Shown in pieces: positions 7,160 to 22,237 of a stretch of 64,000 nucleotides of DNA (position 1 is the stretch's first letter; every line of letters begins with the position of its first letter). The notes beneath the pieces are model-generated. The model saw nothing but the letters and a program-made list of their open reading frames with translations, ran no database searches and was not told where the DNA came from. Source of the DNA: Promethearchaeota archaeon (GTDB taxonomy: Archaea; Asgardarchaeota; Lokiarchaeia; Sigyniarchaeales; SOKP01); NCBI GenBank assembly GCA_048938025.1, contig JBHLMP010000009.1, forward strand, positions 17,130 to 81,129, written 5' to 3'. A program made the translations under genes and the position numbers.

Positions 7160-9244
7160 ATGCCTGTTCATATTACTGATTTCTTAGAAATAGAGTCTAA
7201 TGGAATAAGAAAAAAAGATTTAATAAAAGCTCCAAGTTTAAAAAAAACCTTCATCTCAATTAATCAACATTTATATGCAAAATTAAAACAAACTGATACA
7301 GATACGCGGACTAGATCAAAAGAAATAATCAATCTCTTACTTTGTAAATTAAATGATGAAATTAATAAGGATGATAATGAAATTTTAGACTTTTGTATTA
7401 AAAAAGGTGAATCAATAGAAGATTTGTATGATAGAATACAAAAGTTATTCGAGAAAAATGTTAAAGAGAAGTATATAGAAATCATAGGGGAAAATGAGCA
7501 AATCAGCTTAAATAAGGAACTCTTATATCTTATTGTGAATGAATTACAACACATATCGTTATTAAAATCTTCTAAAGATATATTGAGTGATGCGTTTGAG
7601 ATTTTTGTAAGTAAGATTTTAAAAGATGAGGGAGGGCAATTCTTTACTCCTCCAAATATTATTGAATTCATGGTACATTATTTAGATCCTCCTGTTGATT
7701 CAAAAATATTGGACCCTGCCTGTGGTCATGGAGGATTTCTTCTTGAAGCAAAAGAACTGTTATGGTTAAAAATAACCTCAGAAGATAAAAGAATAATTTC
7801 AATCTCAAATTTGTTTGGTATTGATAAAGACCTCTTCTTAGCAAAGATTAGTAAATTATACTTAGAAATATTGAGTAAGGGAAAGTCTTATATTTTTTGT
7901 GAAGATTCATTGGATCCTAAGAGTTATGGAACTCAAGCAAAAGAAGAAATAAAAGATAATTTATTTGATTATATTTTTACTAATCCTCCATTCGGGGTTA
8001 AAATTCCTATAAACGATAAAGAAATTTTAAAAGATTACAAACTTGGTCATATTTGGAAAAATATTGGTGATGGCTGGAAAATGCAAGAAAAGTTAGTAAA
8101 ACAACAACCACCTCAAGTTTTATTTATTGAAAGGTGTATTCAGTTACTTAAAGACGGAGGAAAGCTAGGTATTGTCTTACCGGAAGGAATATTCGGAAAT
8201 CCTACAGATCGCTATATTTGGGAATATTTAACTTCTAATGGTAAAATATTAGCTATTGTCTCATTGGATCAGAATACCTTTCAACCTTATACATGTAATA
8301 AAACAAGTATTTTATTCTTTCAGAAATTGAATAATATTCCAGCAGATTATACAATTGATTTTGCAATTGTGGAAAATGTGGGACATGATAAAGATGGAAA
8401 GGTTTTATATAAATTGAATAAAGATGGAACTAAAAAATTAGATTCTGCAGGCTATCCAATAATAAACGATGACCTCATAGGGTTACACTTAAAAATAAAA
8501 AAGGCTGAAGAATTTAACTATTTAATGGAACAAAAAATCTTTAAGATTAAATTTAGCCAGATTAAAGATAAAATTTTCATCCCGATTTATTATATCGGTG
8601 TAGAAAAAACTTTAAAAAAACTAGCAAACGATAAGAATTTCACACTTTTAAGTATTAAAAAGTTAGCAAAACAAAAAATAATTTATACTAATAAGAGCGG
8701 TTATCTCCCACGAGGAGATGAAATAGGATCTCATGTATATGGTTTAGGAGATATCCCATTTATGAGGACGAGTGATATAAATAATTGGGAAATAAATTTA
8801 GATTCATATAAAAAGACAAGCGAAGAAGTTTATAAGCAATATAAACTAAAACAGAATATAGAAGAAGGAGATATCCTATTAGTTAAAGATGGTGGGCCTA
8901 ATTTGATTGGTAAAACTGCTTATATAACTAGGTTAGATACCCAAATAATAATTCAGAGTCATATATTCCAGATAAAAGTATTAGAAAATAATGAATTTCT
9001 TGATTCTTATCTTCTTTTGTATTTATTGAATTTAGATATTGTGCAAAAACAAATTCAAGCAATTACTTTTGTTCAAGGAACAATAGCAACAATTGGAAAT
9101 AGAATTATGGAAGTAATCTTACCAATCCCCTCGGATATTGAAAAAAGAAAAGAAATCTCAAGATATATAAAAAAGATTATTGATGAGAAAACAGAAATAA
9201 GGAAGAATATATCCAGATTATCTATAGGATCTTTTAATGACTAA
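7160..9244 (+). CDS. N6-adenine DNA methyltransferase (HsdM-like) fused to a C-terminal HsdS-like target recognition domain
   Basis: GQFFTP, motif I LDPACGHGGFL, motif IV TNPPFG, IVLPEG; C-terminal IPFMRTSDI, GDILLVKDG..IGKTA and ILPIP are typical of HsdS TRDs. Confidence 0.88.
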   Translation: MPVHITDFLEIESNGIRKKDLIKAPSLKKTFISINQHLYAKLKQTDTDTRTRSKEIINLLLCKLNDEINKDDNEILDFCIKKGESIEDLYDRIQKLFEKNVKEKYIEIIGENEQISLNKELLYLIVNELQHISLLKSSKDILSDAFEIFVSKILKDEGGQFFTPPNIIEFMVHYLDPPVDSKILDPACGHGGFLLEAKELLWLKITSEDKRIISISNLFGIDKDLFLAKISKLYLEILSKGKSYIFCEDSLDPKSYGTQAKEEIKDNLFDYIFTNPPFGVKIPINDKEILKDYKLGHIWKNIGDGWKMQEKLVKQQPPQVLFIERCIQLLKDGGKLGIVLPEGIFGNPTDRYIWEYLTSNGKILAIVSLDQNTFQPYTCNKTSILFFQKLNNIPADYTIDFAIVENVGHDKDGKVLYKLNKDGTKKLDSAGYPIINDDLIGLHLKIKKAEEFNYLMEQKIFKIKFSQIKDKIFIPIYYIGVEKTLKKLANDKNFTLLSIKKLAKQKIIYTNKSGYLPRGDEIGSHVYGLGDIPFMRTSDINNWEINLDSYKKTSEEVYKQYKLKQNIEEGDILLVKDGGPNLIGKTAYITRLDTQIIIQSHIFQIKVLENNEFLDSYLLLYLLNLDIVQKQIQAITFVQGTIATIGNRIMEVILPIPSDIEKRKEISRYIKKIIDEKTEIRKNISRLSIGSFND

Positions 9245-12866: not shown

Positions 12867-14108
12867 GTGAAGAAAGTTGCAATTATAGGGATAGGGATTA
12901 CTCCTTTTAAAGCGAGATATTTAGACAAAACCTACTTTGAATTGGCTTATGATGCAACGAAACTTGCACTAAATGATGCAAATAATAATGGAGCAGAAAT
13001 AACTCATAAGGATCTGCAATCCACAGTATATGGAATTTATAATGAATTATTTGAACGTCAATTTATGCCAGATATTTTTATAAATTCATACATAGGTATG
13101 AATAATAAACCAGGCACACGTATAGCAACAGGAGGGGCAACAGGAGGATATACTGTAAGGATGGCATATGCAGAAGTAGCTTCTGGCTTATCTGACTTAT
13201 GTCTATGTATAGGAGTCGAAAAATGTAACGATTGCTATGACGAACAAACAGGTACAACTACGCCAGAGGTATTGAACGCTATTGCATATTCTGCTGATAT
13301 GACTTATGAATATCCTATGGGAATGCTGGCTGCCAGTTCTTATGTCTCGATGGTAAATGCACATTATGAGGAATTTGGGAATCCAACAGAAGAGCAAATG
13401 GCTTTGGTATCTGTTAAAAATCATGGAAATGCTATAAATAACCCAAAAGCACAATCTCCAATGAAAATAACAGTTGAAGATGTAATGAACTCAAGAATAA
13501 TATGCTATCCATTTAAAATGTTAGATTGTTGTTTATATTCAGAAGCATCAGCAGCTTTAATTCTCGCAAATGAAGATAAAGTAAAGGATCTAAAAATTGA
13601 GAACCCAATCTGGATTACTGGTGTGGCAGCAACAAATACTGATTGCTTTATAGGAAACAGAGAAGATATGGGACGTCTCTATTCTAATATTTATGCTGCA
13701 AAAGCAGCTTATAAAATGGCAGGATTAGATTATAACAAAATTAAGACACAAATTGATTTAGCGGAACTTCATGATGCTTTTAGTGGACAAGAGGTTATCA
13801 GCTATGAGGAGCTTGGGTTTGTTCCATTTGGGGAAGGAGGCAATTGGATAGAAACAGGTGGTCCTTTTATCGATGGTGAATTACCATGTTGTCCTAGCGG
13901 TGGATTGATTGGATGTGGTCATGCTGTGGGCGCTACAGGAATTATGTCCACAGGGGAAGCAGCTCTTCAGCTTCGAGAGGATGCTGGGAAGCATCAAGTA
14001 AAATCAATTGAAAATGGTAGAGCTATTGCTCATTCAATCGGAGGACCTGGAGCAGCATATGCAGCGGTTATAGTAATGTCAAATGAGGAGGGGTTGAGAA
14101 AGGCGTGA
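12867..14108 (+). CDS. Thiolase-fold protein (SCP-x type) lacking the nucleophilic Cys
   Basis: KVAIIGIG, KNHGNAINNPKA, ELHDAF, SGGLIGCGHAVGATG; the Cys loop reads TGGATGG. Confidence 0.88.
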   Translation: MKKVAIIGIGITPFKARYLDKTYFELAYDATKLALNDANNNGAEITHKDLQSTVYGIYNELFERQFMPDIFINSYIGMNNKPGTRIATGGATGGYTVRMAYAEVASGLSDLCLCIGVEKCNDCYDEQTGTTTPEVLNAIAYSADMTYEYPMGMLAASSYVSMVNAHYEEFGNPTEEQMALVSVKNHGNAINNPKAQSPMKITVEDVMNSRIICYPFKMLDCCLYSEASAALILANEDKVKDLKIENPIWITGVAATNTDCFIGNREDMGRLYSNIYAAKAAYKMAGLDYNKIKTQIDLAELHDAFSGQEVISYEELGFVPFGEGGNWIETGGPFIDGELPCCPSGGLIGCGHAVGATGIMSTGEAALQLREDAGKHQVKSIENGRAIAHSIGGPGAAYAAVIVMSNEEGLRKA

Positions 14109-14599
14109 GTGAAGAATTTCAAGATCATCAAGTAAGAGATATAATAAAAATCAATTACAAATATACGATGGGAGGACAATCTAAATTTTTTCTTGAAGTT
14201 ATGAATAACAAGAAATTATTAGGTACTAAATGTACCAAATGTGGGAAAACTTGGATGCCTCCAAGAATTAATTGCTCTGATTGTTTTGTTCCTGCTGAAT
14301 GGGTGGAATTGAACCAAACAGGAACCATCCAAGTCAGCACCATAGTTTGGTATACCACTTCTGCTTTCATTAAAGCAATCCCATATGGTATAGGGTTTAT
14401 AAAATTAGATGGCGCAGAAACCGCATTACTTCAAGGAATTTTTTCAGAAAATTTAGTCCCTTCTAAGATTAAGAGAGGAAGAAGAGTTAGAGCAGTTTTT
14501 AACAAAGTAAGAGAAGGGAAAATGACAGATTTTTTCTTTGTTCCAGAAGATGAATATGAAAACTGGATAAATAAACCTGAATATGAAGGAGGGAACTAA
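14105..14599 (+). CDS. DUF35 Zn-ribbon/OB-fold thiolase partner protein
   Basis: CTKC...PPR..CSDC followed by OB fold; GTGA overlap with the thiolase stop. Confidence 0.9.
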   Translation: MSEEFQDHQVRDIIKINYKYTMGGQSKFFLEVMNNKKLLGTKCTKCGKTWMPPRINCSDCFVPAEWVELNQTGTIQVSTIVWYTTSAFIKAIPYGIGFIKLDGAETALLQGIFSENLVPSKIKRGRRVRAVFNKVREGKMTDFFFVPEDEYENWINKPEYEGGN

Positions 14600-14601
14600 A
14601 A

Positions 14602-14973
14602 ATGGGTATAGCAAGAGATAATTTAACAAAAATTATTGAAAACATAAACCACAATGAAAAAGCTCAAGTTGTTTTTGTAACTAATATTGCTGGGAAGGAT
14701 GTTGATTGGGAAATGTCATTTCAATTCAACCTTGATAATGAAGACCCTTTTTATGTAGATATTAAAAACCGCAAAGCAATTTTGTTAGAAGGGACCAAAT
14801 CAGATTCAGTTATAGTTATGTCTGGAGATCCTAATTCAATTGTTAAAATCTGCAACGGCAAGGGTGATTTCACTCACGCAATCAGTCGTGAAGAGATTAC
14901 TGTAGAAAAAGGTAGGGTTATGGATGTTATTAGACTAACAAGAGCAATAACAATCGTTTTAAAAACAAAATAA
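14602..14973 (+). CDS. SCP2 sterol/lipid-binding domain protein
   Basis: 123 aa; FQFNL...FYVDIK...EG...G.F..AI....I.V..G pattern; third gene of the thiolase operon with GGAGG SD. Confidence 0.68.
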   Translation: MGIARDNLTKIIENINHNEKAQVVFVTNIAGKDVDWEMSFQFNLDNEDPFYVDIKNRKAILLEGTKSDSVIVMSGDPNSIVKICNGKGDFTHAISREEITVEKGRVMDVIRLTRAITIVLKTK

Positions 14974-15486: not shown

Positions 15487-16542
15487 TTGATTAAATTGAA
15501 AATTGTTGATCTCCGTTCCGATACGGTAACAAAGCCATCTCCTGAAATGTGGGAAGTAGTTAAATCATTAGATAATACTAAGATAGGTGATGATGTTGAA
15601 AAAGAAGATCCAACTGTTAATGAATTAGAAGATAAAGCAGCAAAGATAGTGGGAAAAGAGGCAGCATTATTTGTCACTTCAGGAACACAAGGAAACCTTG
15701 TCTCTTTATTATCCCAAACCACACCTGGAGATGAGATAATGGTTGAGGAACTTAGTCATATTTATGGTCATGAAGTAGGAAGTGCTGCTCGAATCGGAGG
15801 ATTAATGATTTGTACCTATCCTTCAAATAAAGGTATCCCAAACTTAGATGACCTTCAGAACATGATTCGAGATAAGGAAGATATTCATGAACCTCCAACA
15901 ACTCTTTTTTGTGCTGAAAATACTCATAATTTTCATGGAGGTATTATAATCAAACCTGAAGATCTTAATAAAATGAAAAAATTTGCAGGAAAAAACAATT
16001 TAAGATTTCATCTTGATGGTGCAAGAATATTTAATGCTTCGATAGCCCTCAACCGACCTGCTTCAGATTTCACTCAATATGTTGATAGCGTTATGTTTTG
16101 TCTATCCAAAGGCCTTTCCTGCCCAGTTGGTTCTATTGTTGCTGGTTCATACGATTTTATTGAAAGAGCGAGAAGATATAGAAAAATGTTAGGAGGAGGG
16201 ATGAGGCAAGCAGGAGTTATTGCTTGTTTTGGGTTAGTGGCACTCGAACCGAAATGGATAAAAAGATTAGAGGAAGATCATAAGAATGCTAAATTGCTTG
16301 CTGAAGGTCTTAAGAATCTAGAATTATCAATTAAAGTTCAACAACCAGAAACTAATATTTTCTGGGTAGATTTTCCACTTAATATACCAATGGATAAACT
16401 AATGACTAATTTATCTGAAAATGGGATTAAAACCTTCAATTTTAACCATAGAATACGTTTCGTTACTCATTATGGACTAAATGAAGATGATATTCAATAT
16501 AGCATAGGAATAATTGAAAAAATTTTACTTAGTTTGTTCTAA
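15487..16542 (+). CDS. ltaE: Low-specificity L-threonine aldolase (PLP)
   Basis: DLRSDTVTKP, GDD..EDPTV, SGTQGN, ENTHN, HLDGARIFNA, CLSKGL, GGGMRQAG. Confidence 0.93.
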   Translation: MIKLKIVDLRSDTVTKPSPEMWEVVKSLDNTKIGDDVEKEDPTVNELEDKAAKIVGKEAALFVTSGTQGNLVSLLSQTTPGDEIMVEELSHIYGHEVGSAARIGGLMICTYPSNKGIPNLDDLQNMIRDKEDIHEPPTTLFCAENTHNFHGGIIIKPEDLNKMKKFAGKNNLRFHLDGARIFNASIALNRPASDFTQYVDSVMFCLSKGLSCPVGSIVAGSYDFIERARRYRKMLGGGMRQAGVIACFGLVALEPKWIKRLEEDHKNAKLLAEGLKNLELSIKVQQPETNIFWVDFPLNIPMDKLMTNLSENGIKTFNFNHRIRFVTHYGLNEDDIQYSIGIIEKILLSLF

Positions 16543-16581: not shown

Positions 16582-17112
16582 TTACTCTTTGCTGATATCT
16601 AAATCCTTTGCGTCATCTTCTACTAAATCATAGTATTCTATGTCATTTAATCCGCCAGTGATATTTTCTGCCCAATGAACTTTAACTGGCATTCCAATAT
16701 AAGTATCTTTTAAATCCACTTCAGGATTTAACTCACCCATCTCTGTTGTATCAGCTCCATCTTGGCGGATCAATACCATTGGCTTTTCCCGAATTTCACC
16801 TGTTTCTGGATCTTTTAGATAAGCTATTGCATATGTAGAAACTTCACCTGTTTCTCGTAAATCAACCCATTGATCTGGTTTTATCATACATTTTCCACAC
16901 ACATATCTAGGAGGGAAAAAAACTCTATTACATCCTGGACATTTCAAACCAATCAATTTCTTCTCTTTTAATTTTTCTAAAAAAGGTTGAAAATGAGTAA
17001 TATTAAATTTAAAATTATAACTGGTCAAATACCAATTACTTGGCATTGTTCTAGTCCTTTTATAGTCTCTTTTAACGTAGTCCAAAGATTTCCTTTGAGT
17101 TAATTTTGACAG
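16582..17112 (-). CDS. DUF35 Zn-ribbon/OB-fold protein
   Basis: CPGC..FPPR..CGKC, IGMPV; in-frame CTG at 17112 follows a GGAGGTGA SD (listed TTG start at 17085). Confidence 0.88.
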   Translation of the reverse strand: MSKLTQRKSLDYVKRDYKRTRTMPSNWYLTSYNFKFNITHFQPFLEKLKEKKLIGLKCPGCNRVFFPPRYVCGKCMIKPDQWVDLRETGEVSTYAIAYLKDPETGEIREKPMVLIRQDGADTTEMGELNPEVDLKDTYIGMPVKVHWAENITGGLNDIEYYDLVEDDAKDLDISKE

Positions 17113-17118
17113 CTTAAT

Positions 17119-18366
17119 TCACCTCCATTTTCTCTGGGGTTCATCTGACATCACCATCATTGTACATAAATTAAGTATTCCGCCCCACCCATGCCCGATA
17201 GCAGTATGAACCGTTTTAGGTACTTGATTACTGGCTTTTCCCATTATCTGTAAGGCAGCAACAGCAGGTCTCTCTAATGCAGATGCTCCAATTGCATTAG
17301 TAGAATTAACACCTCCTGAACAGCATATTGGCAATTCACCATTTAACGCAGTTACTCCATTTTCGTACATCTGTGGAGCTGTAGTTTCTTCAAATAAACC
17401 CAATTTTTCAACCCACATGAGTTCCTGATTAGGGAATGGAGCATAAACTTCAGCATAATCTATTTCTTTTCGAGGAAAGGAGATCCCTGCCTGATTATAA
17501 GCCAATTCAGATGATTTCATTGCCCCTAATTGTTCTGAGGGATCTATTTGTCCTGATCCACTACAGTCATATCCAAGAACAGCTGTCTCATGAGCAATAC
17601 TAGCCACACCATTTACATAAACGGGAATATCACACACATCTTTAGCTTTTTCTTCTGTTGTAAATAAAACCGCACAAGCACCATCACTTGCAGGACAAAC
17701 CATCCCATATCTTAAGGGATAGGATATATAGGGCGTGTCCAAAACTTCTTCAATGGTAACATTTGGCATTTTTAAATGAGCCCACCAAGTTTTTGCAGCA
17801 TTACGTCTATTTTGTACCACCACTCTAGCCAAATCTTCTTCAGTTATCTTTGATTTACTCATATAATTAGTTGCTTGATATGAGGCTACACCAATAGCTG
17901 CACCTGCTGATAAAATACGTGTTAATCGTTCATAATCAATTCCTAGAGTATTGTAAATAGTAATTTCCCCATAGGCTACACTAGCTAAACCAGTAGCAGT
18001 GTTACCCTGGCTTTGTTGTTCAAAGCCAACGGCAAGTACTGTATCAATTCCGGGTAATCCTGCTGCAACAGTATAATAACCGGCAATTGCAACAGTACCT
18101 CCTGTGGTACCCCCAGTTGTAACTCGCATTAATGGTTTATTTCTCGCTCCCATCCAATCGGTCATCCATAATTCCGGAATATTTGACCCTTCAAAGGCAG
18201 GCATATTTCCATTTACATAAGCATCAATATCTTCAAAACTTACGCTTGGAACTTTCTTTAAGCAATCTTCTATTGCTTCACTCACTAATTCAGGCATACT
18301 AACATCAGATCGTTTTGACGCATGTTCACTAAATCCTGCTGAAACTATTGCCACTTGCCTTCCCAT
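17119..18366 (-). CDS. Ltp3-like thiolase-fold protein (putative aldolase subunit)
   Basis: RVTTGGTTGG (no Cys), AEVYAPF replacing HDAF, GGVNSTNAIGASA replacing GHP, GHGWGG; start at MGRQVAIV. Confidence 0.82.
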   Translation of the reverse strand: MGRQVAIVSAGFSEHASKRSDVSMPELVSEAIEDCLKKVPSVSFEDIDAYVNGNMPAFEGSNIPELWMTDWMGARNKPLMRVTTGGTTGGTVAIAGYYTVAAGLPGIDTVLAVGFEQQSQGNTATGLASVAYGEITIYNTLGIDYERLTRILSAGAAIGVASYQATNYMSKSKITEEDLARVVVQNRRNAAKTWWAHLKMPNVTIEEVLDTPYISYPLRYGMVCPASDGACAVLFTTEEKAKDVCDIPVYVNGVASIAHETAVLGYDCSGSGQIDPSEQLGAMKSSELAYNQAGISFPRKEIDYAEVYAPFPNQELMWVEKLGLFEETTAPQMYENGVTALNGELPICCSGGVNSTNAIGASALERPAVAALQIMGKASNQVPKTVHTAIGHGWGGILNLCTMMVMSDEPQRKWR

Positions 18367-18367
18367 T

Positions 18368-19510
18368 TTAATTACTCCCCTCCAATACATACACGATATT
18401 ATTTTGAGCACACATACCTATTTGACCAGAGGCTACAGCTTTTTTTGCCCCTTTAACTTGATATTGATTCCCTTCTCCTTTTAATTGTTTAGCAGCTTCG
18501 ATTATTCTTATTAATCCTGTTGCACATGGTGGATTCCCTCCTATTGCTCCTCCAGAAGGATTTATTGGTAATTCGCCATTTATATTTGAATCAATATTTA
18601 AACCTTTACCTTTTTCAGCAAACCCCAACGCCTCAGTAAATATTAGTTCTTCATGAGCATAAGCCTCAAATAATTCAGCGATATCTATTTCGTCTCGTGG
18701 ATTTTTAATTCTAGCCGATTTAAATGCCATTTTGCCAGCTAATTCCATTGATTTACTTGTTGATAAATCTCTATCACCAAGATAATAACCTTCTTGACTA
18801 TAGCCTACACCCGTGATCCAGACAGGATTTTCTGTTATTTTTAAAGCTTGTTTCTCAGGTGCTAATAATAAAGCAGCAACTCCATCACAAGGTTGAGCAA
18901 CCATTAATTCTGTTACTGGATCAGCATAAATTTCTGACTCTAACACATCTTTAACGGTAAGGTTTGGATTTTGAGATTCTGCTAAGGATAATGGATTTTT
19001 AGCGGCATTTTTCCTATTTTTTACAGCGATTTTAGCAATATCTTCAGCACTAATGCCATACTTCTCCATATATGCTCGCATTTGAAATCCAGCAGCAGTA
19101 ATATCATTAACATAAGCAACGGGTCTTTCCCAAGTTGGATCTGTTTCATATAATCGAGCAGAGTGATATGGAAAGCATGAAGCCATACTTCCACCCCAAA
19201 CAACTGCTAGTTTATGATTACCAGATAATATCCTCATTAATCCATACAAAACAGCATGAGCACCATCCATTTCTACTTTACTCTCATCGCTCATATATCC
19301 TCCACCAACTTCAACAGTAAAGCAATTTGATATCGTGCGTCCTTCATAATAATCATTAGTGCAAGAGATAACAGTTGTAATATCCTTTTTCTTTAAACCA
19401 ACCATGTCAAGTGCACCTCTAACAGCTTCAAAAATCATTTCATACCGACCATAATTAGCATCTGAATACAATTTTACTTGATTATATCCTACAATACCTA
19501 CTTTTTGCAT
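18368..19510 (-). CDS. Ltp4-like thiolase-fold protein (putative aldolase subunit)
   Basis: DYYEGR, ESKVEMDGAHA (no Cys), AELFEAYAHEE, NPSGGAIGGNPPCATGLIR. Confidence 0.82.
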   Translation of the reverse strand: MQKVGIVGYNQVKLYSDANYGRYEMIFEAVRGALDMVGLKKKDITTVISCTNDYYEGRTISNCFTVEVGGGYMSDESKVEMDGAHAVLYGLMRILSGNHKLAVVWGGSMASCFPYHSARLYETDPTWERPVAYVNDITAAGFQMRAYMEKYGISAEDIAKIAVKNRKNAAKNPLSLAESQNPNLTVKDVLESEIYADPVTELMVAQPCDGVAALLLAPEKQALKITENPVWITGVGYSQEGYYLGDRDLSTSKSMELAGKMAFKSARIKNPRDEIDIAELFEAYAHEELIFTEALGFAEKGKGLNIDSNINGELPINPSGGAIGGNPPCATGLIRIIEAAKQLKGEGNQYQVKGAKKAVASGQIGMCAQNNIVYVLEGSN

Positions 19511-19528
19511 GGTTCTTTTTACCTCCCA

Positions 19529-19993
19529 CTATAATTTTCTGAAACCCTTAATATCTGAAGGGTCACCTTTTGTTTTTTCTTCCCATACAGCTTTTACTTT
19601 CATTCCAGTTTTGATCTCTTCTGGGTTTATATCCAAAAGACGATAAACTATCCCTGTATTGCTACCATCAATTTGTATCATCCCGATTATTTGAGGTTTT
19701 TTTACTTTTCGAGTAGTTCTATCATTCACCTTATAATATGTGACAGTGTAATTTAGCAAAATTCCTGTTTCAGGCAAATTAATCCAGTTTTGGTCCAAAG
19801 GAATTGTAATATTACATATTCCACAGATTTTTCTTGGAGGTACAAAAATTTTTCCACATTTCGGACATTTATTTCCAATGAATTTCTTGTTTTCAAGAGC
19901 ATCATAGAATTTATCCATGTACTGACCAACCCAAAAATTAAATTCCGCTCTTATAAGTCCCTTATTAGCTACTATTACCTTTTCTTCACTCAT
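19529..19993 (-). CDS. DUF35 Zn-ribbon/OB-fold protein
   Basis: CPKC..VPPR..CGIC, IKTGMKVKAVW. Confidence 0.9.
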   Translation of the reverse strand: MSEEKVIVANKGLIRAEFNFWVGQYMDKFYDALENKKFIGNKCPKCGKIFVPPRKICGICNITIPLDQNWINLPETGILLNYTVTYYKVNDRTTRKVKKPQIIGMIQIDGSNTGIVYRLLDINPEEIKTGMKVKAVWEEKTKGDPSDIKGFRKL

Positions 19994-20207
19994 TTTAATT
20001 TCTACTCTTATGAATTTTAATATTATTAATAGTAGTAAATAGTTTTAAAATAATTTGAAAATGCTTTATCCAAAAGTGTCTGGTTTAAAAAAAGCAACTT
20101 AAGTAAATAGGTTCCTAAATATTTTATTTTATAATTTTTTTTTCTATTTAATTTAAATTTGAAATTATTAATAAGAAAAATAAGGAAAAAAAAATTTTAA
20201 AATAGGA

Positions 20208-20810
20208 TTAAAATGTAAAACCCTCTGGTAGTTCTGACTCGTGTGTACCTTTAACAACAAACATTAAATCCATAATTGTATAGGTTGGATTCTTGGTTCG
20301 AAAGATTGGCACAACACTTTTTCCTATTTCTGGTTCTCCGACAACTAACACGCTCATAAGAATAGTGACTACTTCTTCGTCAAATTCAACGTTTATGAAT
20401 TTGATTGGTTTTGGCAAGACATTAAAAGCTCCAGAACGATGAGTAATAATAAATGAGTGGATTTTTGCAGTTTTCTGAGCTTTTTCAGTAATATCTATAA
20501 CGGTATTTTTTCTTAGGCAATCTGGGCAATAAATTCTAAAAGGCAAGTGAATTGATCCTTTAAATTCACATTGATCATTATCACATCTTGTCGCCATTAG
20601 TTTTCCCTTTCCAAGAGATTCGAAAAAAATAGCCTCACCACCATAAGAGTGGATATACGTCATATCTCTTGGATTTGTAACTCCAGCCAATTTTCCAGTA
20701 TCTTCGTTAAAAATGGGTTGATTTGCCTCTATAATATGAAATTTTCCTTTTGGTTTGTATCTTCTATTAATTATGGAAACAAAACCTTTTTCTTCTTCAG
20801 TTTTTGGCAT
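20208..20810 (-). CDS. DUF35-like Zn-ribbon/OB-fold protein with N-terminal extension
   Basis: CDNDQC...P.R.YCPDC, OB fold; start MPKTEEE after GGAGG SD, directly behind the thiolase. Confidence 0.82.
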   Translation of the reverse strand: MPKTEEEKGFVSIINRRYKPKGKFHIIEANQPIFNEDTGKLAGVTNPRDMTYIHSYGGEAIFFESLGKGKLMATRCDNDQCEFKGSIHLPFRIYCPDCLRKNTVIDITEKAQKTAKIHSFIITHRSGAFNVLPKPIKFINVEFDEEVVTILMSVLVVGEPEIGKSVVPIFRTKNPTYTIMDLMFVVKGTHESELPEGFTF

Positions 20811-20815
20811 CTTTT

Positions 20816-22237
20816 TTATTCCTCCTTTATTAAGTGATTTGGATGCATTAAAATCGTACAAGTCACATGTGATCCTACTCCAGCGTGACTTATTGCTAAA
20901 CCTCTTTTTGCACCTTTTACTTGAAGACTTGTCCAATCCTTTGGTTTTTCACGACCAAATTCTTTCCATTTTTCTTCAGGCTCATGAATTTCATCCCATC
21001 GATTCCAGAGATGATATCCTATTTCAGCAATTTGCATAAGACCAGTTGCTCCTACAGCATGCATACAACCGATTAATCCACCACATAAATTGCTAGGTAA
21101 TTTACCTGGTTTTTTAGTATTTGGGTTTGTATGATATGCATCACCTGTTTCGATATAATCACGTCCATCTCCATACGAACGAATACCAATATCTTCATAA
21201 GTTTGAATATCACTAATTGTAAAGGCATCATGGAGTTCCACAACATCAAGATCGTCAGTTGGATCAATAATCCCCGTCATATTATATGCATAATAAGCTG
21301 CTATACGTGCAGCTAAAAAACTGCTAAAACCGGGATATCTATCACCCCCGGGAAATCTTTTACCTAAATTATCATATTGTCCTGGCTTTTCATTTGGTAA
21401 AAGGGGTATTTTCATATTACGACGATCAGCCACTCTTAAAGTGTGGCTTCCTGCACCAATCCAAATCCGAAGTGGATTATCTGTTATTTCATATGCTGTT
21501 TTTTCATCACAAACAATACCACATGCAGCTCCAACACTCATTAGACAACAATCTAACGCACGTAAGGGATAAGCAATAACAGGAGAATTAATTACATCCT
21601 CAACCGTGATTTTCATAGGCCCATGTGCGTGAGGATTCATTCTGGCATAACCACGATTTTTAACTGCAATTTCAGCCATAGTTTTTCTAAAAGAATCTTC
21701 TGCTTTACCAAAAATTTGCCAATATCTTTGAGCCATTACAGCATAATAACCAGTATAAATATGACCCAATGGTGTTTCCCAATCTTTATCAGCAGCACAA
21801 GATATAAGGTGGTTTCCCTCGTCAGTTGGGACTTCATCCATTCTCTCCCACCCCATAGCTAGAGCGCAATCACTATATCCAGAAGCAACAGTTTTAATTG
21901 CTTCCCACATCGTTGAACCTCCTGTAGCTCCACCTGTTTTGACACCAATGGTTCCTAATGGATCTAAACCCAATCTATCGTGAATAACTGCTTCTCCTAG
22001 TAATTGATCTCCAAAATGATCTGCAAAATGCCCATAATAAGCAGTATGTATGAAACTCTTCAGTTCAGCAGGTGTCATTTTAACAAAATCTGCTGCAGCT
22101 GTTAATGCTTGGATGCATAATTCTTCAGTTCGCGTTTCTGGAAAAGCTCTGTCGAATTTTGACATACCAACTGTAGCTAAATAAACTGGTCGCATTAATT
22201 TCGGTATTTTTAATTGTTTATCACTAAATTTAATCAT
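20816..22237 (-). CDS. Thiolase-fold protein (SCP-x type) lacking the nucleophilic Cys
   Basis: VKTGGATGG, AVKNRGYARMNPHA, ELHDAF, GGLIGCMHAVGATG. Confidence 0.88.
   Translation of the reverse strand: MIKFSDKQLKIPKLMRPVYLATVGMSKFDRAFPETRTEELCIQALTAAADFVKMTPAELKSFIHTAYYGHFADHFGDQLLGEAVIHDRLGLDPLGTIGVKTGGATGGSTMWEAIKTVASGYSDCALAMGWERMDEVPTDEGNHLISCAADKDWETPLGHIYTGYYAVMAQRYWQIFGKAEDSFRKTMAEIAVKNRGYARMNPHAHGPMKITVEDVINSPVIAYPLRALDCCLMSVGAACGIVCDEKTAYEITDNPLRIWIGAGSHTLRVADRRNMKIPLLPNEKPGQYDNLGKRFPGGDRYPGFSSFLAARIAAYYAYNMTGIIDPTDDLDVVELHDAFTISDIQTYEDIGIRSYGDGRDYIETGDAYHTNPNTKKPGKLPSNLCGGLIGCMHAVGATGLMQIAEIGYHLWNRWDEIHEPEEKWKEFGREKPKDWTSLQVKGAKRGLAISHAGVGSHVTCTILMHPNHLIKEE

What the first reader, a model, noticed from the sequence alone, without database searches (positions are those of the whole stretch)
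16582..19993. DUF35-ltp4-ltp3-DUF35 cassette mirroring the actinobacterial branched-sterol side-chain aldolase locus
Seen: ESKVEMDGAHA and NPPCATGL in 18368-19510; RVTTGGTTGG, AEVYAPF and NSTNAIGAS in 17119-18366; tight coupling with strong SD sites. Established (from recall): mycobacterial Ltp4 has an ESHVEMD-type motif and Ltp3 has AEIY.PF / SNPIGAS-type motifs. They follow a DUF35 gene in the order Rv3521-ltp4-ltp3 and are needed for C24-branched sterol side-chain removal in Rhodococcus. Inference: the same order in an Asgard archaeon, with two separate flanking DUF35 genes, suggests a heteromeric aldolase acting on sterol-like or other branched lipids, possibly scavenged from necromass.
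Basis: partly seen in the sequence, partly recalled or inferred. Interest (0 to 1): 0.72.

Follow-up and report, generated by a model that had tools for sequence, protein, structure and literature searches.

The report
Cysteine-less thiolase pair with DUF35 partners
A Loki-type Asgard archaeon carries a strongly conserved four-gene operon for two thiolase-shaped proteins lacking the thiolase cysteine plus two zinc-ribbon helpers; it is a real but distant relative of the bacterial Ltp3/Ltp4 branched-sterol aldolase and likely cuts a carbon-carbon bond in an unknown, probably non-sterol, hydroxyacyl-CoA.

Summary
Four coupled minus-strand genes (DUF35, Ltp4-like, Ltp3-like, DUF35) carry all five quoted motifs; the last gene most likely starts at CTG 17112. 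The same order occurs in 72 of 80 related loci from Asgard archaea, anaerobic Actinomycetota and Desulfobacterota-type bacteria. Both thiolase-fold proteins lack the nucleophilic cysteine. The Ltp3-like one keeps an invariant Tyr308 at the catalytic-base position of Ltp2/Sal aldolases; the Ltp4-like one is variable there. A heterodimer is predicted (ipSAE 0.95, controls 0.00, possibly by likeness to thiolase dimers). Trees place both in a large Ltp3/Ltp4-like family, but they score under the NCBIfam cut-offs, and the genome holds a second cassette whose Ltp3-like gene is closer to actinobacterial Ltp3. The sterol reading is unsupported: no P450, KstD-like enzyme or acyl-CoA carboxylase was found in this 97%-complete genome, and the Rhodococcus route needs a carboxylation. 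Best reading: a heteromeric retro-aldolase for a 3-hydroxyacyl-CoA in anaerobic lipid breakdown, substrate unknown. Beta-keto-acid cleavage genes flank 22 of 70 related genes, but not here. This scan reported the same cassette in many other genomes.

The parts
19529..19993 (-). DUF35 protein 1 (zinc ribbon + OB fold, 154 aa), both CxxC pairs intact; predicted docking subunit
   Evidence: Pfam PF12172 and PF01796; best PDB sequence hit SSO2064 3IRB, E 4e-12; matches both halves of the actinobacterial tandem-DUF35 protein at 22-29%
18368..19510 (-). Ltp4-like thiolase-fold protein (380 aa); cysteine loop replaced by VEMDG, catalytic His/Tyr column variable; likely non-catalytic partner
   Evidence: NCBIfam PRK07937 193 bits, cut-off 419; 28-30% to actinobacterial Ltp4-type proteins; position 281 is F/Y/T/S/H in 25 relatives; thiolase fold, TM up to 0.88
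17119..18366 (-). Ltp3-like thiolase-fold protein (415 aa); no nucleophilic Cys (TTGG), invariant Tyr308 and Asn357; likely catalytic subunit
   Evidence: NCBIfam PRK08313 362 bits, cut-off 514; 34-38% to actinobacterial Ltp3-type proteins; Y308 in 25 of 25; aligns with the His of HDxF in solved thiolases; fold
17443..17445 (-). Codon of Tyr308, the predicted catalytic base (position of TcLtp2 Tyr294 and CtSal Tyr302)
   Evidence: motif correspondence from PMC12329534
16582..17112 (-). DUF35 protein 2 (176 aa from a CTG start 6 nt after GGAGGTGA; 167 aa from TTG 17085), CxxC pairs intact
   Evidence: Pfam PF12172 E 7.5e-9, PF01796 E 0.003; ATG at the same place in 8 of 8 relatives
19994..20207 (.). 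AT-rich intergenic stretch separating the cassette from the upstream thiolase-like/DUF35 pair; likely terminator plus promoter
   Evidence: read from the sequence; not scanned

Best explanation
The four genes encode two cysteine-less thiolase-fold proteins and two DUF35 proteins that are predicted to form one complex (DUF35-Ltp4-like-Ltp3-like-DUF35), which likely works as a retro-aldolase cutting the C2-C3 bond of a 3-hydroxyacyl-CoA whose identity is unknown and is probably not a sterol. Shown: gene content, order, loss of the thiolase cysteine, invariant Tyr308 in the Ltp3-like subunit, variable catalytic columns in the Ltp4-like subunit. Predicted: the L3-L4 heterodimer. Inferred: the two DUF35 proteins cap the dimer as in Ltp2-ChsH2(DUF35) and Sal-Shy(DUF35); Tyr308 removes the proton from the 3-hydroxyl; the products are acetyl- or propionyl-CoA plus a ketone; the substrate is most likely a beta-branched (tertiary) 3-hydroxyacyl-CoA that cannot be oxidised by ordinary beta-oxidation, supplied by CoA ligase, acyl-CoA dehydrogenase and enoyl-CoA hydratase such as those encoded nearby. 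No carboxylation step is available in this lineage.
For: Tyr308 aligns with the His of HDxF in solved thiolases, which is the YDHF/YDCY catalytic base of the two characterised aldolases of this fold (PMC12329534); it is kept in 25 of 25 close relatives and in all 28 rows of the wider pair alignment. Gly in place of the nucleophilic Cys excludes thiolysis (same paper). Ltp3-Ltp4 is described as a heteromeric aldol-lyase (PMC6678751). Heterodimer model: ipSAE 0.95, best of 3 controls 0.00; the mark was reached by 116 of 157 solved and 2 of 215 mismatched pairs; runs agree in at least 94% of contacts, partner pLDDT at least 93; may reflect likeness to solved thiolase dimers. In that model invariant R81 of L3 touches E/D80 of L4 (E 23, D 2 of 25), while L3 itself has T/A/S at the matching acidic position. 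Two DUF35 domains go with the pair as separate genes, as a tandem fusion in actinobacteria and in Asgard loci L011 and L016, and as SCP2-SCP2-DUF35 in L125. Neighbours in the window and in relatives are CoA ligases, acyl-CoA dehydrogenases, enoyl-CoA hydratases, FabK/NMO-type and BKACE genes.
Against: No enzyme assay exists here, and I found none for Ltp3/Ltp4 in the passages read. The second acid of the known aldolases is missing: Pro/Gly at Tyr+2 (His in Ltp2, Cys in Sal) and Asn357 at the GHP-His position. No neighbour is constant across loci; the commonest non-cassette neighbours in Loki loci are a SepF-like gene (23 of 80) and a nitroreductase (22 of 80). The branched-substrate step rests on analogy only. 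The genome also has classical thiolase-like genes, so the cassette is not needed for straight chains.
Confidence: 0.6

Rival explanations
1. One reading: the complex is a functional Ltp3/Ltp4 orthologue that removes C24-branched sterol side chains from scavenged sterols.
For: Same gene order; in the L4 tree the window clade, actinobacterial Ltp4 and one Desulfobacterota gene form a 96/94 set; the union of window clade and actinobacterial Ltp3 is not rejected (p-AU 0.34). An SCP2-like gene lies at 14602-14973.
Against: No P450, no PF01039 carboxyl transferase (1 of 25 family genomes), PF00890 gives only two NadB-like genes. The Rhodococcus route needs C26 oxidation and C28 carboxylation first (PMC6678751). 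Identity is only 28-38%; both proteins are under the cut-offs. Actinobacterial Ltp3 hits the C78 paralogue better (43% vs 35%) and groups with a Desulfobacterota gene (84/96). The window clade has a roughly 20-residue insertion in the loop region that actinobacterial Ltp3 lacks.
Confidence: 0.07
2. Same aldol chemistry but on an unbranched or dicarboxylic 3-hydroxyacyl-CoA, as Sal does, giving an aldehyde or a free beta-keto acid that is passed to a BKACE or an aldehyde oxidoreductase; or run in the condensing direction.
For: A BKACE gene lies within 6 kb of 22 of 70 Ltp3-like genes in the Asgard sample, about 1.2 expected, and beside cassettes in Desulfobacterota-type loci L054 and L119. 28 of 32 genomes with an Ltp3-like gene have BKACE. 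Sal cleaves secondary 3-hydroxyacyl-CoA.
Against: Only 4 of 26 window-type genes have a BKACE nearby (typed by match length). This genome has none near either cassette and no close orthologue of the linked BKACEs (best 35-41%). Genomes are related, so counts overstate. 18 of 46 BKACE genomes lack a listed Ltp3-like gene.
Confidence: 0.18
3. Not an aldolase: a cysteine-independent enzyme of another type (decarboxylase, acyl transfer) or a non-catalytic acyl-CoA-binding scaffold.
For: No second acid is identifiable. PhlC-type acyltransferases also show Tyr in this column. A trypanosomal thiolase-like protein was reported as a slow malonyl-CoA decarboxylase (PMC12329534).
Against: The closest characterised relatives act in a retro-aldol step. 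Invariant Tyr308/Asn357 and 82-94% identity across at least 120 Loki-type clusters per gene fit a catalytic role.
Confidence: 0.15

Closest known systems
Actinobacterial tandem-DUF35 protein / Ltp4 (NCBIfam PRK07937) / Ltp3 (PRK08313) of C24-branched sterol side-chain degradation (Wilbrink et al. 2012, seen only as cited in PMC6678751; Rv3521-Rv3523 numbering recalled)
   Same: Order DUF35-L4-L3; two DUF35 domains per pair; VEMD motif in L4; no Cys, E-x-Y-x-P-F and N-x-I-G-A-S in L3; same broad clades.
   Different: 28-38% identity; below both cut-offs; DUF35 split into two genes that flank the pair; loop insertion; anaerobic host without P450, KstD-like or carboxylase genes; several paralogous cassettes per genome.
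Ltp2-ChsH2(DUF35) (PDB 6OK1) and Sal-Shy(DUF35) (PDB 9MYR) steroid side-chain aldolases
   Same: SCP2-type thiolase fold (TM 0.74-0.83), Gly for the nucleophilic Cys, catalytic-base Tyr, dimer flanked by two DUF35 domains.
   Different: Those are homodimers with DUF35 fused to a MaoC hydratase and have His or Cys at Tyr+2; here a predicted heterodimer with stand-alone DUF35 proteins and Pro at Tyr+2; 18-25% identity.
Archaeal PRK06066/PRK06065 thiolase-like pair with two DUF35 genes
   Same: Same two-plus-two layout (L085, L135), Cys-less, Tyr kept in the downstream subunit.
   Different: Separate sister family (outgroup); no characterisation seen in my searches.
Archaeal acetoacetyl-CoA thiolase/HMG-CoA synthase/DUF35 complex, BbsAB, PhlABC
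   Same: Thiolase fold with DUF35 partner.
   Different: They use a catalytic cysteine (in part recalled; Cys motif visible in the 7YVY alignment). This genome's own Cys-bearing thiolase sits beside an HMG-CoA-synthase-like gene on C37.

Membership tests
Ltp3 (PRK08313) / Ltp4 (PRK07937) | Score above the curated NCBIfam cut-offs | tested here: not met
   362 of 514 and 193 of 419 bits; actinobacterial control L032 passes with 734 and 593
Ltp3 (PRK08313) / Ltp4 (PRK07937) | Gene order DUF35-ltp4-ltp3 with two DUF35 domains | tested here: met
   second DUF35 is a separate downstream gene
Ltp3 (PRK08313) / Ltp4 (PRK07937) | Shared active-site motifs (no Cys; ExYxPF and NxIG in L3; VEMD in L4) | tested here: met
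Ltp3 (PRK08313) / Ltp4 (PRK07937) | One-to-one orthology (best hits, sister clade) | tested here: inconclusive
   Ltp4 best hit is the window gene, Ltp3 best hit is the C78 paralogue; L4 tree 96/94 for a set that also holds L123, L3 tree unresolved, p-AU 0.34
Ltp3 (PRK08313) / Ltp4 (PRK07937) | Sterol pathway context (P450, acyl-CoA carboxylase, ring enzymes) | tested here: not met
   genome 96.7% complete; anaerobic steroid markers other than KstD-type were not searched
Ltp3 (PRK08313) / Ltp4 (PRK07937) | Heteromer formation | tested here: inconclusive
   model passes, ipSAE 0.95 vs 0.00, but homodimers were not modelled and a pass may come from likeness
Ltp3 (PRK08313) / Ltp4 (PRK07937) | Cleavage of C24-branched steroid side chains | not testable with these tools
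   needs assay or complementation
Thiolase-fold aldolases (Ltp2, Sal) | Catalytic-base Tyr in place of the HDxF His; no nucleophilic Cys | tested here: met
   L3 Tyr308; not met in L4
Thiolase-fold aldolases (Ltp2, Sal) | Catalytic acid (Tyr344 of Ltp2 or Cys of YDCY) | tested here: not met
   Pro/Gly at Tyr+2, Asn357; correspondence of Asn357 with Tyr344 is inferred through the GHP column, not aligned directly
SCP2-type and archaeal thiolases | Nucleophilic Cys in the N-terminal CxSG loop | tested here: not met
   TTGGTTGG in L3, VEMDG in L4

The most novel reading that the evidence does not exclude
The cassette is the core of an undescribed oxygen-free, carboxylase-free route by which sediment Asgard archaea, Desulfobacterota and Geothermincolia cut beta-branched acyl chains (isoprenoid or alicyclic lipids of dead cells) by hydration and retro-aldol cleavage, in some lineages coupled to BKACE, with actinobacterial sterol Ltp3/Ltp4 as one specialised branch of this older anaerobic family.
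Probability: 0.22. Interest if true: 0.7.

Novelty: new variant of a known kind. Interest (0 to 1): 0.4.

Why it matters
It gives a concrete, testable enzyme for how anaerobes might break acyl chains that stall beta-oxidation, and a split-DUF35, heterodimeric version of the Ltp3/Ltp4 module whose chemistry I found described only from genetics. It also bears on annotation: 7 of the 8 full-length SCP2-type 'acetyl-CoA acetyltransferases' of this genome lack the nucleophilic cysteine, so counts of thiolase/DUF35 pairs in Asgard genomes as a sign of fatty-acid synthesis (bioRxiv 2024.07.05.601840, passages) may be inflated. It is not evidence for sterol use by Asgard archaea.

Tried and rejected
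Sterol pathway markers in the genome: P450, carboxyl transferase and KstD-type searches were empty or gave NadB-like genes (NadB label from my reading of the sequence, not from a family scan). Carboxylate-then-cleave route (Rhodococcus or geranyl-CoA type): rejected, PF01039 in 1 of 25 genomes of the family, 0 of 6 and 0 of 5 in two other cassette-bearing families. Substitute for HMG-CoA synthase: rejected, a Cys-bearing thiolase and a synthase-like gene lie together on C37 (the synthase scores under the TIGR00748 cut-off). Obligate coupling to BKACE: rejected for this genome. DUF35-BKACE fusion, a lead from earlier scan notes: none among the 4 related DUF35 ORFs scanned; L125 is SCP2-SCP2-DUF35. 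Expression: no RNA holder listed. Literature for a phytol retro-aldol route or for steroid use by Lokiarchaeia: nothing relevant listed. A direct alignment of the C-terminal motifs to 6OK1 or 9MYR was not obtained. The four-subunit model exceeds the size limit of the complex tool; only L3+L4 was folded. Sulfolobus and Archaeoglobus sequences were not sampled. M. tuberculosis and R. rhodochrous sequences were not obtained; other actinobacterial loci served as references.
Full report
Observation. The minus strand of 16582-19993 holds four ORFs with gaps of 18, 1 and 6 nt. Pfam calls the outer two DUF35 (zf-ChsH2, OB_ChsH2_C) and the inner two thiolase-like. SD-like sites precede genes 2-4. Gene 4 most likely begins at CTG 17112, where 8 of 8 close relatives have ATG. 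The window is contig C71 of a 3.52-Mb, 29% GC genome, 96.7% complete. Homologues at 82-94% identity, where named, are mostly Promethearchaeota/Lokiarchaeota; only the best 120 of 600 and of 925 hits were listed.

Distribution. A scan of the species-level genome set with an alignment of the window's sub-clade confirmed 333 stretches and returned the best 80. 72 of 80 have the order DUF35-L4-L3-DUF35; six others lie at a contig edge and two read L4-L3-D-D. Hosts include Lokiarchaeia, Hermod- and Jordarchaeia-type archaea, Geothermincolia-type Actinomycetota and Desulfobacterota-type MAGs. The window's genome has a second cassette, L4'-L3'-DUF35-DUF35, on C78. One Jordarchaeia and one Desulfobacterota genome each hold several such pairs. 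In 151 genomes of the phylum, 32 carry a listed Ltp3-like gene at E 1.4e-98 or better (111 weaker matches were not listed). Two Asgard loci have the DUF35 pair fused, as actinobacteria do.

Relation to Ltp3/Ltp4. Actinobacterial loci with tandem-DUF35, ltp4-type and ltp3-type genes were fetched from the plasmid collection. L032 passes PRK07937 and PRK08313 and lies beside an EchA19, a P450 and a gene annotated as steroid 3-ketoacyl-CoA thiolase. Equating these two models with Ltp4 and Ltp3, and the Rv numbering, is recalled. The window proteins are 34-38% (L3) and 28-30% (L4) identical to them and score 362 of 514 and 193 of 419 bits. L032 Ltp4 hits the window gene best; L032 Ltp3 hits the C78 paralogue best (43% vs 35%). 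A FastTree of 151 rows (345 before removing near-duplicates, some frameshifted rows included) puts the window proteins inside broad Ltp3-like and Ltp4-like clades. IQ-TREE on 28 pairs, reduced from 128 at 76% identity, LG+G4 without mixture, rooted on PRK06065/PRK06066 pairs: for L4 the window clade, actinobacterial Ltp4 and Desulfobacterota L123 form a 96/94 set, with a long actinobacterial branch; for L3 the base is unresolved, actinobacteria join L123 (84/96) and the union with the window clade is not rejected (p-AU 0.34). So these are real relatives; one-to-one orthology is not shown.

Active sites. Neither protein has the nucleophilic cysteine. L3 has Tyr308 where solved thiolases have the His of HDxF. 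That column is the catalytic base of TcLtp2 (Tyr294, YDHF) and CtSal (Tyr302, YDCY), both of which form a dimer flanked by two DUF35 domains (PMC12329534, first part of the text and passages). Tyr308 and Asn357 are invariant in 25 relatives; in L4 the same columns vary freely. No counterpart of the known catalytic acids is seen, which counts against certainty on mechanism. AlphaFold models (pLDDT 80 and 88) match SCP2-type thiolase folds, with no preference for the aldolases over thiolases. The L3-L4 model scored ipSAE 0.95 against 0.00 for the best of 3 controls; the mark was reached by 116 of 157 solved and 2 of 215 mismatched pairs; runs agree in at least 94% of contacts, partner pLDDT at least 93. 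The pass may come from likeness to thiolase dimers, and homodimers were not modelled.

Substrate. In actinobacteria the branched side chain is oxidised by Cyp125, activated, desaturated, carboxylated at C28, hydrated and then cut by heteromeric Ltp3-Ltp4 (PMC6678751, passages; the primary paper was not read). This genome gave no P450, no carboxyl transferase and only NadB-like PF00890 genes. Carboxyl transferase is found in 1 of 25 other genomes of the family. Anaerobic steroid enzymes other than KstD-type were not searched. The surroundings are those of general acyl-CoA metabolism: two CoA ligases, two enoyl-CoA hydratases, a FabK/NMO-type gene, an acyl-CoA dehydrogenase, two more Cys-less thiolase-like/DUF35 pairs and an SCP2-like gene within about 13 kb. 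In relatives the neighbours vary, with the same enzyme classes recurring (one search scanned 85 of 97 selected ORFs). BKACE lies within 6 kb of 22 of 70 Ltp3-like genes against about 1.2 expected, mostly beside the paralogous type (4 of 26 for the window type, typed by match length), in 10 of the 80 loci, and not in this genome. BKACE converts a free beta-keto acid and acetyl-CoA to an acyl-CoA and acetoacetate (PMC11961710, passages showing this for one substrate; generality recalled), which would suit a keto-acid product of an aldol cleavage. Kin are not independent in these counts.

Mechanism. Most likely (0.6) a DUF35-L4-L3-DUF35 retro-aldolase with one working site, cutting a 3-hydroxyacyl-CoA, probably beta-branched, after plain hydration. 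Rivals: secondary or dicarboxylic substrates, or the condensing direction, with BKACE (0.18); another chemistry or a scaffold (0.15); sterol side chains (0.07).

Novelty. Searches for ltp3/ltp4 with DUF35, with Rv3521 or archaea, for Asgard with thiolase and DUF35, for SSO2064 and for BKACE listed no paper on this cassette in archaea or anaerobes; most subscription journals are not covered, and the supplements of the bioRxiv preprint on archaeal KT/DUF35 pairs were not seen and may bear on this. Passages of PMC10398937, PMC2954200, PMC1995591 and bioRxiv 2023.02.15.528638 were also read and add only context. Earlier notes of this scan describe the same cassette and the BKACE link in many other genomes; my reading and the BKACE count were made from my own calls. 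Verdict: a real, conserved, untested variant of the Ltp3/Ltp4 module, without support for sterols. Interest 0.4.

Noticed in passing
window 20816-22237 (-) and 20208-20807 (-): A third Cys-less thiolase-like gene (PRK06365, 671 of 695 bits; keeps HDAF and MHA histidines) with a divergent DUF35-like gene, about 89% conserved in relatives.
   Followed up: partly
window 12867-14973 (+): A fourth Cys-less thiolase-like gene (best PRK06064, 322 of 420 bits) followed by DUF35 and an SCP2-like gene; often within 10 kb of the cassette in Loki relatives.
   Followed up: partly
L031 1307-4567 (G000 C78): Second Ltp4/Ltp3-like cassette with two trailing DUF35 genes and a divergent enoyl-CoA hydratase; its Ltp3-like gene is closer to actinobacterial Ltp3 than the window's.
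   Followed up: partly
window 17110-17112 (-): CTG in place of the ATG start of relatives, with an intact SD; non-canonical start or strain variant.
   Followed up: yes
window 15487-16542 (+): Low-specificity threonine-aldolase-like gene converging on the cassette in 20 of 80 loci; probably positional.
   Followed up: no
L125 5781-7031: SCP2-SCP2-DUF35 fusion directly after an L4-L3 pair in a Desulfobacterota-type genome, hinting at a hydrophobic substrate.
   Followed up: partly
L085 799-4278; L089 2744-6193; L135 4304-7657: PRK06066/PRK06065 pair with two DUF35 genes, in L085 and L089 directly upstream of the window-type cassette.
   Followed up: partly
L064 3734-4996 and L083 2685-3722: 2-hydroxyacyl-CoA dehydratase (HGD-D) genes beside the cassette in 10-13 Loki loci; orthologues are on C33 in this genome.
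   Followed up: no
G000 C37 7030-9676: The only Cys-bearing SCP2-type thiolase, next to a 481-aa HMG-CoA-synthase-like gene whose extra length may be a fused DUF35 (not tested).
   Followed up: partly
window 7160-9244 (+): A 694-aa restriction-modification methylase-like gene (NPPF motif, label from recall) inside the lipid gene region.
   Followed up: no
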